A stretch of 64,000 bases of DNA from Gammaproteobacteria bacterium (lineage in GTDB: Bacteria; Pseudomonadota; Gammaproteobacteria; Pseudomonadales; Azotimanducaceae), in contig VXNY01000022.1 of the NCBI GenBank assembly GCA_009840305.1, positions 14,042 to 78,041 of the forward strand, given 5' to 3'. The notes beneath the pieces were generated by a model. It had not been told where the DNA came from and did not search any database. It worked only from the letters and a program-made list of their open reading frames with translations. Below are positions 16,943-20,023 of the stretch, piece by piece; position 1 is the first letter of the stretch; every line of letters begins with the position of its first letter. A program made the translations under genes and the position numbers.

Positions 16943-18064
<1,122 letters not shown>

Positions 18065-18481
18065 AACAGATGTCGATCCTCATCAGCATACAGCGAATAC
18101 AAGGCGGATAATGTAATCGGTCAATTTCGAATCCTCGGTAGTCGAACCAAGCTGGGCGATATCAAATTGACAAGAATCTTGTAAGTAGTTGTGCGTATTG
18201 AAGCTTGCACTTCACTGGGAAAGTGATATTTGACGTTTGAATCGGTACTCACGCCAAGTAACTAGTTAAAATCGTAGTGTGTTGACCCGAGAAGAACACA
18301 AGCTGAATTTGCACGGCAATGTTGTGCTTAATCTGGTGATTTTTGTGACTTCTTGCTGTCACACAACAAGGGTATTCTGAATAAGTACCGATCTTACGAA
18401 GATAACACGGTTCTTGGATGAGTCCCTGTAGGTGTTGACTGACTGCAGTCAAGAATCTTTAACTGAAGGAGAAGTTTTCAA

Positions 18482-18970
18482 ATGAAGACCCAAAAATCGA
18501 TCATGATCACACTCGTCTCACTACTAACCATCGCGGGAGGAGCGCTAATCGCACAACAAGGAGGTATGCAAATGCCGCAAGGTGGTTTCCAGATGCCCTC
18601 CGAAGAAGAAATGGAAGCAATGATGAGGGAAGGGATGAAGATGATGTTGTCGCAAATTGACGATGACGGCGATGGCAAACTGTCCTTAGAGGAGTTCACA
18701 AAGCTGGCCGAAATGGAGGCTGGAATGGGCGTGGAAGGAGAAGAGGAACAAACTGAGGAAGAAAAAGCAAAGGAAATTAAAGAAGAATTCGAGAAAGCCG
18801 ATGCTGACGATGACGGTTTATTGACAATCGACGAAATCATGGATGCCGCGAAGAAAGCAATGGAAGAAGCCGAGGATGGCGAAGACTCTGAAGACGGCGA
18901 AGAAGAAGATTCTGAAACCGACGAGGAAGCCGACGATGAGGAAGATGAAGACGAAGAGGAGGAAGAGTAA
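18482..18970 (+). CDS. secreted acidic EF-hand calcium-binding protein
   Basis: Signal peptide MKTQKSIMITLVSLLTIAGGALIAQ. Two EF-hand loops are present (DDDGDGKLSLEE, DADDDGLLTIDE). The roughly 40-residue C-terminal tail is almost pure Asp/Glu. SD gaaggag precedes the ATG. Confidence 0.75.
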   Translation: MKTQKSIMITLVSLLTIAGGALIAQQGGMQMPQGGFQMPSEEEMEAMMREGMKMMLSQIDDDGDGKLSLEEFTKLAEMEAGMGVEGEEEQTEEEKAKEIKEEFEKADADDDGLLTIDEIMDAAKKAMEEAEDGEDSEDGEEEDSETDEEADDEEDEDEEEEE

Positions 18971-19096
18971 ACAGTCTTTCGTTTGATCGACGCATGGTCG
19001 CAAATCTATAGCAAACCTTTACTAAAGGATTTTGTCAAGCCCTTCGTAAAATAGTTTGAAAGCAAGTTTTTCAACTAACTTTTTGGGAACAACATT

Positions 19097-19666
19097 ATGA
19101 AGAGCAAACTATTGATTGCCATTTCGGCACTCTCTTTAATCTTTGCACTCCCGTTACTCGCTCAAGGTCAAGGTGGCGGGCAATGGAGAGGCGGCCAAGG
19201 CGGTAACTGGGACATGGAAGCAGCGAAACCACGCATGGTTGATCGCGCTATCGAAACCATGGACGCAGACGACGATGGTGAATTGTCAAAGGAAGAATTT
19301 TTAGAATTTGCCAAGAACGATCGGTACAGTGCTTGGTTTGCTGAAGACGACGCTGAAGACGAAGAAGAATCTGGCGACGAAGACGCAGAGGCTACTGAAG
19401 AAGAAGAAGAGGCTTCGGCAGACGAGGCTGAAGAAGGCGACGAAGAGAGCGAAGAAGACGCGCTCGTTAAATTCTACGATGCTAAGTTTGCAGAAGTCGA
19501 TGCCGACGACGACGGAAGTATCACCGCTGAAGAACTAACGGAAGCCTTTGACGTCGAAGCGTACATGGACCGAATTCAAGAACGAATGCGAGAAGGCGGT
19601 GGCAATTGGCAACGTGGTCAAGGTGGAGGCGGAAATTGGCAGCGACCAGGAGGCGGATCCCCGTAA
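19097..19666 (+). CDS. secreted acidic EF-hand calcium-binding protein with G/Q/W/N-rich termini
   Basis: Signal peptide MKSKLLIAISALSLIFALPLLAQ. EF-hand loops are DADDDGELSKEE and DADDDGSITAEE, with a central poly-acidic block. GGQWRGGQGGNW lies at the mature N-terminus and GGGNWQRGQGGGGNWQRPGGG at the C-terminus. Confidence 0.75.
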   Translation: MKSKLLIAISALSLIFALPLLAQGQGGGQWRGGQGGNWDMEAAKPRMVDRAIETMDADDDGELSKEEFLEFAKNDRYSAWFAEDDAEDEEESGDEDAEATEEEEEASADEAEEGDEESEEDALVKFYDAKFAEVDADDDGSITAEELTEAFDVEAYMDRIQERMREGGGNWQRGQGGGGNWQRPGGGSP

Positions 19667-19741: not shown

Positions 19742-19774
19742 AAGAGGTGGAGCAAGTGCTTCGCCTCTTTTTTT
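19742..19774 (+). terminator. rho-independent terminator after the two EF-hand genes
   Basis: AAGAGGTGGAGCA-AG-TGCTTCGCCTCTT forms a long GC-containing hairpin with one G-U pair. It is followed directly by TTTTT. Confidence 0.7.
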
Positions 19775-19837
19775 GTTCCAGCGCAATCAAGCTCAATAAG
19801 AGTTCGTCGAACAGTCAGATGCGTGTGAACTAAACAT

Positions 19838-19927
19838 TGGCGGAGAGGGAGGGATTCGAACCCTCGATGGGTTTCTGCCCATACTCCCTTAGCAGGGGAG
19901 CGCCTTCAACCACTCGGCCACCTCTCC
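19838..19927 (-). tRNA. tRNA-Ser (anticodon GCU), type II with long variable arm, CCA encoded
   Basis: The reverse complement GGAGAGGTGGCCGAGTGGTTGAAGGCGCTCCCCTGCTAAGGGAGTATGGGCAGAAACCCATCGAGGGTTCGAATCCCTCCCTCTCCGCCA folds as a cloverleaf. The acceptor is GGAGAGG/CCTCTCC, the anticodon arm is CTCCC-CTGCTAA-GGGAG, and the T-arm is GAGGG-TTCGAAT-CCCTC. Confidence 0.92.
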
Positions 19928-19946
19928 AATGTTGTTGCGACCAATT

Positions 19947-20023
19947 TGGCGCGCCTGACAGGACTCGAACCTGTAGTCGCCAGTTTCGTAGACTGGTGCC
20001 TTATCCAGTTTGGCCACAGGCGC
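19947..20023 (-). tRNA. tRNA-Arg (anticodon ACG), CCA encoded
   Basis: The reverse complement is GCGCCTGTGGCCAAACTGGATAAGGCACCAGTCTACGAAACTGGCGACTACAGGTTCGAGTCCTGTCAGGCGCGCCA. The acceptor is GCGCCTG/CAGGCGC, the anticodon arm is CCAGT-CTACGAA-ACTGG, and the T-arm is ACAGG-TTCGAGT-CCTGT. Confidence 0.92.

What the first reader, a model, noticed from the sequence alone, without database searches (positions are those of the whole stretch)
18482..19666. Pair of secreted EF-hand proteins with poly-acidic tracts and G/Q/W/N repeats next to a tRNA cluster
Both ORFs have clear signal peptides, two canonical EF-hand loops each, and very long Asp/Glu runs (e.g. ...EEAEDGEDSEDGEEEDSETDEEADDEEDEDEEEEE at the C-terminus of the first). 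The second is capped at both mature ends by GGQWRGGQGGNW / GGGNWQRGQGGGGNWQRPGGG repeats. The first has QQGGMQMPQGGFQMP. The combination of EF-hands and poly-acidic tracts resembles high-capacity, low-affinity Ca2+ buffers such as calsequestrin, but here it is exported. The pair lies between adhC and tRNA-Ser/tRNA-Arg, a typical insertion hotspot, and ends in a strong terminator. With the six-gene array at 29-34.7 kb, this window encodes eight exported EF-hand proteins.
Basis: partly seen in the sequence, partly recalled or inferred. Interest (0 to 1): 0.6.

Follow-up and report, generated by a model that had tools for sequence, protein, structure and literature searches.

The report
Exported acidic EF-hand protein pair
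Two neighbouring genes of an uncultured sponge- or coral-associated marine bacterium encode small exported calcium-binding (EF-hand) proteins with conserved, very acidic disordered stretches; they are a lineage-specific duplicated variant of a known kind of protein, and their function is untested.

Summary
ORF1 (18482-18970, 162 aa) and ORF2 (19097-19666, 189 aa) are real genes under purifying selection. Each has a Sec-type signal peptide (judged by heuristics; SignalP not run), two canonical EF-hand loops that pass Pfam cut-offs, and long Asp/Glu tracts. ORF2 also has conserved Gly/Gln/Trp caps at both mature ends.

AlphaFold predicts one compact EF-hand pair per protein. The acidic tracts and caps are predicted to be disordered, yet they are as constrained as the EF cores (dN/dS about 0.17-0.18 for ORF2).

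The two genes are paralogs from a tandem duplication of a single EF-hand gene. In related species that gene sits between adhC and an amidohydrolase gene and has a Ser/Thr-rich, not acidic, linker. The full-length family occurs in only part of one genus of "OMG group"/Pseudomonadales MAGs from sponges and coral. That genus has a patchy expansion of exported EF-hand proteins.

There are no signs of a tRNA-targeted island. The calsequestrin comparison is only a compositional analogy.

My best reading is that these are Ca2+-loaded polyanionic envelope proteins, possibly a heterodimer. Sensor and host-directed roles remain open. This is a new variant of a known kind and of moderate interest. I could not get expression data.

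The parts
18435..18452 (+). Palindrome TTGACTGACTGCAGTCAA (7-nt arms) about 30 nt upstream of ORF1. It may be a -35 element, an operator or a leader hairpin.
   Evidence: Read from the sequence. The arms are conserved in the close orthologs L002, L008 and L009, with one arm change in L010; the spacer varies in all four. Function not tested.
18465..18474 (+). Shine-Dalgarno region GAAGGAGAAG of ORF1
   Evidence: Conserved as AAGGAGAAG in L002, L008 and L009 (AAGGAAAAG in L010).
18482..18970 (+). ORF1: a 162-aa exported protein with two EF-hands and a poly-acidic C-terminal tail
   Evidence: ORF. Pfam EF-hand_7, _1, _6 and _8 above cut-off. Eleven-member family A2. dN/dS 0.13-0.36 across segments.
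18482..18553 (+). ORF1 signal peptide (aa 1-24, predicted cleavage LIA|QQ)
   Evidence: Hydrophobicity and -1 Ala heuristics. A24, Q25, Q26, G27 and G28 are invariant in the family.
18554..18601 (+). ORF1 mature N-terminus, Gln/Gly/Met/Pro-rich (QQGGMQMPQGGFQMPS), predicted to be largely disordered
   Evidence: pLDDT below 50 over aa 18-30 and 32-35; block means 46-53 for aa 21-40. QQGGM and MP are invariant. dN/dS 0.13.
18659..18694 (+). ORF1 EF-hand loop 1, DDDGDGKLSLEE
   Evidence: D60, D62, D64 and E71 are invariant.
18800..18835 (+). ORF1 EF-hand loop 2, DADDDGLLTIDE
   Evidence: D107, D109, D110 and E118 are invariant.
18878..18967 (+). ORF1 poly-acidic C-terminal tail (aa 133-162, 24 D/E in 30), predicted to be disordered
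   Evidence: pLDDT below 50. dN/dS 0.32.
19042..19096 (+). Conserved intergenic block upstream of ORF2. It contains TAAAAT (19047-19052) and the palindrome TTGAAA-N7-TTTCAA (19056-19074). It may be an internal promoter, an operator or a 5' leader.
   Evidence: Nearly invariant in L002, L008, L009 and L010, and partly so in L001 and L018, although dS in the coding regions is above 1. The intergenic distance is a constant 130-135 nt. Function not tested.
19097..19666 (+). ORF2: a 189-aa exported protein with two EF-hands split by a poly-acidic linker, and Gly/Gln/Trp caps at both mature ends
   Evidence: ORF. Pfam EF-hand_5, _7, _1 and _6 above cut-off. Family of 26 proteins, of which 24 plus the window's own make up alignment A1. 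dN/dS 0.16-0.38.
19097..19162 (+). ORF2 signal peptide (aa 1-22, predicted cleavage LLA|QG)
   Evidence: Heuristics. A22, Q23 and G24 are invariant.
19163..19210 (+). ORF2 N-terminal cap QGQGGGQWRGGQGGNW, predicted to be disordered
   Evidence: pLDDT below 50. Gly and Gln positions invariant or nearly so. dN/dS 0.18.
19262..19297 (+). ORF2 EF-hand loop 1, DADDDGELSKEE
   Evidence: D56, D58, D59, D60 and S64-F68 are invariant. pLDDT 86-92.
19343..19450 (+). ORF2 poly-acidic linker between the two EF-hands (aa 83-118), looped out and predicted to be disordered
   Evidence: pLDDT 38-53. Length and composition conserved. dN/dS 0.17, the same as the EF cores.
19499..19534 (+). ORF2 EF-hand loop 2, DADDDGSITAEE
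   Evidence: D135, A136, D137, D139 and E146 are invariant. A beta-bridge pairs residues 141-143 with 62-64.
19595..19663 (+). ORF2 C-terminal cap GGGNWQRGQGGGGNWQRPGGGSP, predicted to be disordered
   Evidence: pLDDT below 50. The ending NWQRPGGGSP is shared by most homologs. dN/dS 0.18.
19742..19776 (+). Intrinsic terminator (12-bp stem, 6 G-C pairs, T-run) that closes the two-gene unit
   Evidence: Stem and T-run are conserved in orthologous loci.
19838..20023 (-). tRNA-Ser(gct) and tRNA-Arg(acg). This is the conserved end of the alaS-lysC-csrA-tRNA cluster. It is a neighbour of the pair, not part of it.
   Evidence: The same arrangement occurs in L011-L013.

Best explanation
ORF1 and ORF2 are a conserved pair of paralogous genes that arose by tandem duplication. 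They are probably co-transcribed. Each encodes a small, cysteine-free protein exported by the Sec pathway.

Each mature protein has one compact EF-hand pair (two canonical Ca2+ sites) set within conserved, intrinsically disordered, low-complexity segments. ORF1 has a Gln/Gly/Met/Pro N-terminus and a poly-Asp/Glu tail. ORF2 has a 36-residue poly-Asp/Glu loop inserted between its two EF-hands, and Gly/Gln/Trp(Arg/Asn) caps at both ends.

The pair belongs to a lineage-specific expansion of exported EF-hand proteins in one genus of sponge- and coral-associated marine Pseudomonadales ('OMG group').

The most likely mechanism is inferred, not shown. In the periplasm, or outside the cell if the type II secretion system exports them, the EF lobe is permanently Ca2+-loaded at marine Ca2+ levels and serves as a Ca2+-stabilised fold. 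The strongly anionic disordered tracts (net charge -40 to -49) hold further Ca2+/Mg2+ weakly. The proteins would then act as Ca2+-charged polyanions, giving local cation exchange or buffering in the envelope. They may work as an ORF1-ORF2 heterodimer with four EF-hands.

Shown here: the genes are real and under purifying selection; EF-hand membership; predicted fold and disorder; paralogy; synteny; narrow distribution. Inferred: export, Ca2+ binding, low-affinity binding by the acidic tracts, and heterodimerisation.
For: EF-hand HMMs pass Pfam cut-offs and all four loops are canonical. The liganding positions are invariant across 25 and 11 homologs.

AlphaFold gives one EF-hand lobe per protein (pLDDT 83-92 for ORF2, 74-86 for ORF1) with the inter-loop beta-bridge. 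The acidic tracts and caps have pLDDT below 50. Foldseek returns only EF-hand lobes.

The disordered segments are as constrained as the cores: dN/dS is 0.17 for the linker and 0.18 for the caps, against 0.16-0.20 for the EF cores.

Heuristics support a signal peptide, and there is no Cys and no other hydrophobic segment. A GspD secretin scoring above its cut-off lies on the same contig.

ORF1 and ORF2 are homologous from signal peptide to EF2 (hhalign probability 97.7%, E 1.4e-12). They form two well-supported clades, each including its G015 counterpart. They always co-occur about 125 nt apart, with no terminator found between them in this window.

Poly-acidic tracts are rare in this genome (6 of 4463 ORFs) and are combined with EF-hands only here.

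Context from the literature: EfhP, a periplasmic protein with two EF-hands, binds Ca2+ with a Kd of 13.7 uM, and periplasmic Ca2+ tracks or exceeds external Ca2+ (PMC9132961). From general knowledge, seawater Ca2+ is about 10 mM, so sites of similar affinity would be saturated. That favours a 'loaded polyanion' over a sensor of ambient Ca2+.
Against: A soluble buffer cannot set steady-state free Ca2+ in a compartment that is open to seawater through porins, so the benefit of 'buffering' is unclear.

In the related single-gene form the inter-EF linker is Ser/Thr/Arg-rich. The function shared across the wider family therefore cannot depend on acidity.

ORF1 is Met-rich (13 of 138 mature residues), and ORF2 has an invariant Y77-W80-F81 patch next to EF1. 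Both features are typical of target-binding sensor lobes rather than buffers.

Several ORF1 homologs lack Gly at loop position 6, which may weaken their sites.

Heterodimerisation was not modelled.
Confidence: 0.5

Rival explanations
1. They are envelope Ca2+ sensors or adaptors like EfhP or Caulobacter CaBP. Ca2+ binding opens the EF lobe, which then binds a periplasmic or membrane partner and relays a signal. The disordered tracts tune affinity or solubility.
For: The layout matches EfhP: a Sec signal plus two canonical EF-hands in a small mature protein (PMC9132961). It also matches the periplasmic CaBP (PMC13171946). ORF1's EF1 entering helix is Met-rich (EEEMEAMMREGMKMML), as in calmodulin-type target-binding surfaces (the comparison is from general knowledge). 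ORF2 has the invariant Y77, W80 and F81 next to EF1, which could be a docking or pseudo-target motif. Earlier scan notes report small secreted EF-hand proteins wired to sigma factors or two-component systems in other bacteria.
Against: No sensor kinase, sigma or anti-sigma factor, or other regulator lies next to the pair; the neighbours are adhC, tRNAs and csrA. There is no sigma-54 promoter. At marine Ca2+ levels, micromolar sites would be permanently saturated. Strong conservation of roughly 35-residue poly-acidic tracts is not needed for a simple sensor.
Confidence: 0.25
2. They are host-directed secreted factors. After Sec export they leave the cell, through the type II system or in vesicles, and act in the sponge or coral matrix or in a phagosome. 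They could chelate Ca2+, interfere with host Ca2+-dependent processes, or inhibit Ca-carbonate or Ca-phosphate nucleation on the symbiont surface. This would be analogous to rhizobial calsymin or to acidic biomineralisation proteins.
For: The family is restricted to MAGs whose names point to sponges and a coral (SB06xx bins, CO36404bin_7, Plut_88873; PMC7883664 and PMC12203066 for the SB06xx bins). EF-hand gene load is high in some species of the genus (up to 22 hits) and low outside it (0-4). A GspD secretin is present. Calsymin is a secreted EF-hand protein of a symbiont (listed in PMC9132961, Table).
Against: A Sec signal alone delivers a protein only to the periplasm. There is no evidence of secretion, no recognisable host-targeting domain, and no data on host or habitat for most genomes in the genus. 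The weak XopAW similarity is far below its cut-off (20-23 bits against 120).
Confidence: 0.15
3. They bind a metal other than Ca2+. One option is lanthanides, as lanmodulin does. Another is Cu(I), through the Met-rich N-terminus of ORF1. A third is Fe3+ or other hard cations, through the acidic tracts.
For: Weak LanM similarity (NF053806, E 1e-3; LanM structures among low-ranked matches). ORF1's mature N-terminus has MxM and MP motifs. Bacterioferritin lies in the same interval in G002 and G004.
Against: LanM scores 19 bits against a cut-off of 135. The loops have Ala or Asp, not Pro, at position 2, and there are only two EF-hands. The loops are textbook Ca2+ loops. There is no His or Cys at all.
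Confidence: 0.05
4. They are not real proteins: purine-rich low-complexity DNA that happens to stay open.
For: GAA/GAC/GAG-rich imperfect repeats and strong GC and AT skew at 18-19 kb.
Against: dN/dS is 0.13-0.38 in every segment while dS is about 1 or more. Frames are intact with conserved lengths in more than 15 loci. The ribosome-binding site, signal peptide and terminator are conserved. EF-hand HMM hits pass their cut-offs.
Confidence: 0.02

Closest known systems
EfhP (PA4107) of Pseudomonas aeruginosa (PMC9132961, PMC4053335, PMC11559002)
   Same: [quoted passage not shown]
   Different: By the paper's description, EfhP is a compact 123-aa mature protein. No poly-acidic tracts, Gly/Gln/Trp caps or paralogous partner gene are mentioned there, and I did not inspect its sequence. 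The exhaustive profile search found only 4 proteins below E 1e-10, so similarity to other EF-hand proteins is generic. Orthology to EfhP was not tested directly.
Caulobacter vibrioides CaBP (PMC13171946)
   Same: An EF-hand protein with a Sec signal, shown by experiment to be periplasmic.
   Different: CaBP has three EF motifs in 133 aa and is wired to the ECF sigma factor SigV. No sigma factor lies next to the pair here, and CaBP is not described as having poly-acidic disordered tracts.
Calsymin (CasA) of Rhizobium etli (as listed in PMC9132961)
   Same: An exported EF-hand protein made by a host-associated symbiont.
   Different: Calsymin is a multi-domain protein with more EF-hands. No sequence comparison was made here, and secretion beyond the periplasm is unproven for ORF1 and ORF2.
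Calsequestrin, and the acidic domain of SPARC (high-capacity, low-affinity Ca2+ binders; general knowledge)
   Same: Very high Asp/Glu content, an acidic tail, and a location outside the cytosol. SPARC also combines an acidic low-affinity segment with an EF-hand pair.
   Different: There is no calsequestrin (thioredoxin-like) domain. SPARC_Ca_bdg scores 13.9 bits against a cut-off of 22. The resemblance is in composition and possibly function, not homology.
The single-gene form in congeners (P0042, P0187, P0190; annotated at best as 'EF-hand domain-containing protein')
   Same: True homologs (hhalign E about 1e-13 to both ORFs). They have the same adhC-proximal position, the same layout of signal peptide, EF, long disordered linker and EF, and a G/Q/R-rich tail (P0048 ends in GNWQRR).
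   Different: One gene rather than two. The linker is Ser/Thr/Arg-rich rather than poly-acidic.

Membership tests
EF-hand superfamily (paired EF-hand domain, Pfam EF-hand_7/_1/_5/_6) | Score above Pfam's gathering threshold | tested here: met
   ORF1: EF-hand_7 38.3 bits against 30, EF-hand_1 33.2 against 25.4. ORF2: EF-hand_5 35.1 against 25.9, EF-hand_7 34.2 against 30.
EF-hand superfamily (paired EF-hand domain, Pfam EF-hand_7/_1/_5/_6) | Canonical 12-residue loop (D1, D/N/S3, D/N/S5, G6, hydrophobic 8, E/D12) | tested here: met
   All four loops fit the pattern. Liganding positions are invariant in the family alignments. Some ORF1 homologs lack G6.
EF-hand superfamily (paired EF-hand domain, Pfam EF-hand_7/_1/_5/_6) | Two helix-loop-helix units packed as one lobe, with a short beta-bridge between the loops | tested here: met
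   AlphaFold models show this: in ORF2, strands E62-64 and E141-143 pair, with core pLDDT of 83-92. Foldseek hits are all EF-hand lobes. This is a prediction, not a solved structure.
EF-hand superfamily (paired EF-hand domain, Pfam EF-hand_7/_1/_5/_6) | Ca2+ binding | not testable with these tools
   Needs ITC, 45Ca overlay or NMR on purified protein.
EfhP-like periplasmic EF-hand proteins | Cleavable Sec signal peptide and periplasmic location | tested here: inconclusive
   Heuristics fit: n-region Lys, a single N-terminal hydrophobic segment, Ala at -1, no Cys. SignalP and localisation experiments were not available.
EfhP-like periplasmic EF-hand proteins | Sequence orthology to PA4107 | not tested
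The profile search of 1.84 billion representatives gave only 4 hits below 1e-10, so any relationship to other EF-hand proteins is distant.
Calsequestrin | Three thioredoxin-like domains (Pfam Calsequestrin) | tested here: not met
   No such Pfam hit at E up to 1. The predicted fold is a single EF-hand lobe plus disorder.
Calsequestrin | High-capacity, low-affinity Ca2+ binding by acidic surfaces or an acidic tail | not testable with these tools
   The composition fits (32-43% D+E). Binding capacity has not been measured.
Lanmodulin (LanM) | NCBIfam NF053806 above cut-off, four EF-hands, and Pro at loop position 2 | tested here: not met
   19.2 bits against 135. There are two EF-hands, and position 2 is Ala or Asp.
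XopAW type III Ca2+-binding effectors | NCBIfam NF041410 above cut-off | tested here: not met
   20.1 and 23.0 bits against 120.
SPARC extracellular Ca2+-binding domain | Pfam SPARC_Ca_bdg above cut-off | tested here: not met
   13.9 bits against 22, and for ORF2 only.
tRNA-targeted genomic island | An integrase next to the tRNA and a direct repeat of the tRNA 3' end at the far border | tested here: not met
   No integrase-sized ORF lies between adhC and the tRNAs. The tRNA-Ser 3' end occurs only once in the window, even allowing 3 mismatches. No flanking direct repeats.
tRNA-targeted genomic island | Atypical base composition and patchy presence at an otherwise conserved site | tested here: inconclusive
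   GC is 0.45-0.50 against about 0.47 for the window. The interval does vary between congeners, and IS605-type genes flank the pair in L001. However, the EF gene's ancestral position is next to adhC, not next to the tRNA.

The most novel reading that the evidence does not exclude
ORF1 and ORF2 form a Ca2+-loaded heterodimer of two EF-hand lobes. Its conserved poly-acidic loops and Gly/Gln/Trp 'sticker' caps assemble into a cation-bridged polyanionic coat or condensate at the symbiont envelope. This would be a bacterial counterpart of SPARC or of coral acid-rich proteins. It would control Ca-carbonate or Ca-phosphate nucleation, or host Ca2+-dependent recognition, around bacteria living inside calcifying or Ca2+-rich animal tissue. 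The EF-hand expansion of this genus would then be an unrecognised class of symbiosis factors.
Probability: 0.1. Interest if true: 0.7.

Novelty: new variant of a known kind. Interest (0 to 1): 0.38.

Why it matters
Exported bacterial EF-hand proteins are known, but only a handful have been studied (EfhP, CaBP, calsymin).

This pair shows an architecture I did not find described. The EF-hand pair is split by a long disordered poly-acidic loop that is nevertheless under strong selection. Conserved Gly/Gln/Trp segments cap the protein, and it is encoded next to a paralog with an acidic tail.

It belongs to a patchy expansion of exported EF-hand proteins in a sponge- and coral-associated genus: about 14 small genes in a 2.6-Mb genome. 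The sponge-symbiont 'eukaryotic-like protein' papers listed in my searches do not mention EF-hands.

If the proteins act on calcium at the host-symbiont interface, they would add a new class of candidate symbiosis factors. They would also be a tractable model for how conserved disordered polyanions work in the bacterial envelope. If they are simply Ca2+-stabilised periplasmic proteins, the finding is a modest extension of the known family.

Tried and rejected
- Rfam scan of the whole window: only the two tRNAs, and no riboswitch or sRNA near the pair.
- Sigma-54 promoter, prompted by earlier notes on GlrR-driven EF-hand genes: no site with a GG/GC core upstream of either gene.
- Sigma-70 scan: no convincing + strand promoter.
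- tRNA-island hallmarks: absent.
- Calsequestrin, SPARC, LanM and XopAW membership: all below cut-offs.
- Foldseek against the PDB: no hit at E of 0.001 or better. Only generic EF-hand lobes matched, because the disordered insert depresses scores.
- Profile search against PDB sequences: only generic EF-hand proteins such as calcineurin B and calsensin.
- Lookup of P0012: not on record.
- Literature searches for EF-hand proteins in sponge symbionts and for acidic disordered periplasmic EF-hand proteins: nothing directly relevant.
- Look-alike search in earlier scan notes by sequence: none.
- Rooting the ORF1/ORF2/single-gene tree: not possible. The single-gene forms fall on the ORF1 side of an unrooted split with long branches, so I do not claim which paralog is the 'original'.
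Full report
**1. What is there**

The + strand carries two ORFs: ORF1 at 18482-18970 (162 aa) and ORF2 at 19097-19666 (189 aa). They lie between adhC (16958-18064) and two minus-strand tRNA genes, tRNA-Ser(gct) at 19838-19927 and tRNA-Arg(acg) at 19947-20023. These are followed by csrA, lysC and alaS.

Both proteins pass Pfam's gathering scores for several EF-hand models. Each has two textbook 12-residue loops: DDDGDGKLSLEE and DADDDGLLTIDE in ORF1, and DADDDGELSKEE and DADDDGSITAEE in ORF2.

Each protein starts with a Lys-containing n-region and a single hydrophobic stretch, with Ala at -1 (LIA|QQ, LLA|QG). There is no other hydrophobic segment, no Cys and no twin-arginine motif. That fits a Sec/signal-peptidase-I signal. 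SignalP was not available, so export is inferred.

The mature proteins are extremely acidic. ORF1 is 43% D+E with net charge about -49. ORF2 is 32% D+E with net charge about -40. In the whole 2.6-Mb genome only 6 of 4463 ORFs of at least 80 aa have a comparably acidic 25-residue window, and only these two also have EF-hands. ORF2's Gly/Gln/Trp caps are unique in the genome.

A 12-bp-stem terminator with a T-run follows ORF2.

**2. Are they real genes?**

- ORF2 has 26 homologs at 55-90% identity, and ORF1 has 10 at about 43-78%.
- In every locus that has an ORF2 ortholog, an ORF1 ortholog lies about 125 nt upstream.
- Pooled pairwise dN/dS is 0.13-0.38 in all segments, with dS of about 1 or more.
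- The low-complexity parts of ORF2 are as constrained as its EF cores: acidic linker 0.17, Gly-rich caps 0.18, EF cores 0.16-0.20. dS is near saturation, so these ratios are rough, but the direction is clear.
- The ribosome-binding site of ORF1, a block of about 55 nt upstream of ORF2, and the terminator are all conserved.

The reading 'untranslated low-complexity DNA' is effectively excluded.

**3. Anatomy**

AlphaFold, run with the family alignments, predicts one compact EF-hand lobe per protein. In ORF2 the lobe comprises helices 40-55, 65-73, 119-134 and 144-150, with a beta-bridge between residues 62-64 and 141-143 and pLDDT of 83-92. In ORF1 the helices are 41-59, 69-81, 92-106 and 116-132, with pLDDT of 74-86.

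The predicted disordered parts (pLDDT below 50) are the ORF2 acidic linker (85-115), both ORF2 caps, and the ORF1 acidic tail (133-151 and 158-162). Much of the ORF1 N-terminal Q/G/M/P segment also falls below 50.

ORF2 is thus an EF-hand pair whose two halves are separated by a looped-out poly-acidic insert of about 36 residues. Foldseek finds only EF-hand lobes, with weak E-values because of the insert. The PDB profile search likewise finds only generic EF-hand proteins.

Two further features are worth noting. ORF2 has an invariant Y77-W80-F81 patch just after EF1. ORF1 is Met-rich, with 13 Met in 138 mature residues, concentrated in the helix entering EF1.

**4. Origin**

ORF1 and ORF2 are paralogs. 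The profile-profile alignment runs from the signal peptide to EF2 with 97.7% probability and E 1.4e-12. A maximum-likelihood tree gives two strongly supported clades, ORF1 (99/97) and ORF2 (100/100). Each contains its counterpart from the divergent small genome G015, so the duplication predates that split. ORF2 evolves more slowly than ORF1.

Both are homologous to a single-gene form (P0042, G002, G004, G022). That form has the same plan of signal peptide, EF, long disordered linker, EF and a G/Q/R-rich tail, but its linker is Ser/Thr/Arg-rich. One member ends in GNWQRR, which echoes ORF2's cap.

The genomic context across the genus falls into three groups:

| Genomes | Arrangement downstream of adhC |
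|---|---|
| EF-less congeners G008, G009, G019 and sister genus G032 (G025 with one extra ORF in between) | adhC followed directly by an amidohydrolase gene; no tRNA cluster within 8 kb. In sister genus G035 no tRNA cluster lies within 8 kb either, and this amidohydrolase was not seen. |
| G002, G004, G012, G022 | adhC, one EF-hand gene, the amidohydrolase, a small exported protein with an acidic tail, further genes, then tRNA-Ser/Arg |
| The window's subclade (genomes of 2.5-2.8 Mb) and G015 | adhC, EF1, EF2, then the tRNAs |

The most economical history has three steps. First, one EF-hand gene was gained next to adhC. Second, it underwent tandem duplication. Third, the intervening genes were lost in reduced genomes, with the disordered segments turning poly-acidic.

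There is no integrase, no repeat derived from the tRNA, and no compositional anomaly. The 'tRNA hotspot' reading is therefore not supported. The interval is nonetheless plastic, and in one relative IS605-type genes flank the pair.

**5. Distribution and organism**

Full-length ORF2 orthologs (E below 1e-90) occur in 7 of 29 species of the window's genus. Weaker relatives occur in other congeners. Outside the genus, the 32 genomes sampled from the family and order gave only one marginal hit (E 2.8e-4).

A profile search of 1.84 billion representative proteins found one cluster below 1e-30 and only four proteins below 1e-10. The single-gene family is equally narrow, with 9 proteins, named at best 'EF-hand domain-containing protein'.

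Record titles name MAGs of 'OMG group', 'Pseudomonadales' and 'Gammaproteobacteria bacterium' (Plut_88873, SB06xx bins, CO36404bin_7). SB06xx bins appear among sponge-symbiont genomes in PMC7883664 and PMC12203066. That 'Plut' stands for the coral Porites lutea is my recollection, not something tested here.

EF-hand_7 hits per genome range from 0 to 22 within the genus and from 0 to 4 outside it. The window's genome has 19 ORFs with at least two EF loops, about 14 of which are small EF-hand proteins. These include a second array on contig C11. A GspD secretin scoring above its cut-off lies on the same contig.

**6. Mechanism**

Firmly supported: these are exported-type EF-hand proteins whose disordered acidic and Gly-rich parts matter to the organism.

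For function I rank three readings.

(a) Ca2+-loaded polyanion, about 0.5. EfhP, the best-studied comparable protein, has a Kd of 13.7 uM, and periplasmic Ca2+ tracks external Ca2+ (PMC9132961). At marine Ca2+ of about 10 mM (general knowledge), such sites would be saturated. The EF lobe would then act as a Ca2+-stabilised fold, and the selected function would lie in the anionic tracts, for example weak multivalent cation binding or local ion exchange. Two co-conserved, co-located single-lobe paralogs suggest a heterodimer with four EF-hands. The weak point is that a soluble buffer cannot set steady-state Ca2+ in a compartment open to the sea.

(b) Sensor or adaptor, about 0.25. This is favoured by the Met-rich helix and the aromatic patch. 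It is disfavoured by the absence of any adjacent regulator and of a sigma-54 promoter, and by the saturation argument.

(c) Host-directed or surface-active factor, about 0.15. This is favoured by the host-associated, patchy expansion and the presence of a type II secretion system. There is no direct evidence for it.

Binding of another metal (about 0.05) and a non-gene artefact (about 0.02) are minor.

**7. Comparison with known systems**

The pair works most like EfhP or CaBP, which are Sec-exported small EF-hand proteins. By composition it resembles acidic low-affinity Ca2+ binders such as calsequestrin and the acidic domain of SPARC.

It is a member of the EF-hand superfamily, with all testable criteria met. 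It is not a member of the calsequestrin, SPARC, lanmodulin or XopAW families; each was tested and not met. Orthology to EfhP and similarity to calsymin were not tested.

**8. Verdict**

The pair is a new variant of a known kind: a split EF-hand lobe with a conserved poly-acidic insert and Gly/Gln/Trp caps, duplicated in tandem, in a narrow clade of sponge and coral symbionts with an expansion of exported EF-hand proteins. Interest is moderate.

Noticed in passing
L001 3802-4689 (-) and 7014-7436 (+): In one relative with a complete 2.69-Mb contig, IS605-family OrfB/TnpB genes lie on both sides of the EF-hand pair, between adhC and csrA. The interval therefore does attract mobile elements, even though the pair itself is syntenic.
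   Followed up: no
window 18435-18452: The palindrome TTGACTGACTGCAGTCAA lies about 30 nt upstream of ORF1. Its arms are conserved in close orthologs (one arm change in L010) while the spacer varies. It could be a promoter -35 element, an operator or a leader hairpin.
   Followed up: partly
window 19042-19096: A block of about 55 nt before ORF2 is almost invariant across close orthologs, although synonymous sites are saturated. It contains TAAAAT (19047-19052) and TTGAAA-N7-TTTCAA (19056-19074). This suggests an internal promoter or operator, or a structured leader.
   Followed up: partly
L011 9085-9510 and 9660-10133; L013 7370-7810 and 7969-8442: In congeners with the single EF-hand gene, the same interval also holds a small exported protein with a Gly-rich start and a poly-acidic C-terminal tail, and next to it a ferritin-like ORF that I read as bacterioferritin. 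Acidic tails thus recur on exported proteins at this locus.
   Followed up: no
genome contig C24, minus strand, 219-aa ORF (offset 193853): Another exported EF-hand protein, of the four-EF-hand array type, has Trp/Arg-rich ends on its mature form...SRGNWRWQ... at the N-terminus and ...RNWESRRWESRR... near the C-terminus. These recall ORF2's NW(Q/R) caps, so Trp-containing termini may be a shared functional feature of these exported EF-hand proteins.
   Followed up: no
genome contig C11, about 102950-106245 (+): A second tandem array of three exported EF-hand genes (247, 235 and 405 aa, with 4-9 loops each) lies outside the window. It belongs to the same family as the array at 29-34.7 kb.
   Followed up: partly
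window 18554-18658 (ORF1 aa 25-59): Mature ORF1 is 9.4% Met. The invariant motif QQGGM...MP is followed by EEEMEAMMREGMKMML. This is reminiscent of calmodulin's Met-rich target-binding surfaces, or of the Met-rich Cu(I) motifs of periplasmic copper proteins.
   Followed up: no
genome contig C13:88982-90748 (about 11 kb beyond the window's end): A type II secretion secretin, GspD, scores above its NCBIfam cut-off at 406 bits. The organism could therefore move periplasmic proteins across the outer membrane.
   Followed up: no
L020, L021, L024, L025, L027 (adhC loci of EF-less relatives): adhC is followed within 9-30 nt by a conserved 333-aa amidohydrolase-like gene (motif ICDPHHHLWDHP), apart from one extra ORF in L025. 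This is probably an ancestral adhC operon partner, and the window's subclade has lost it from this locus.
   Followed up: partly
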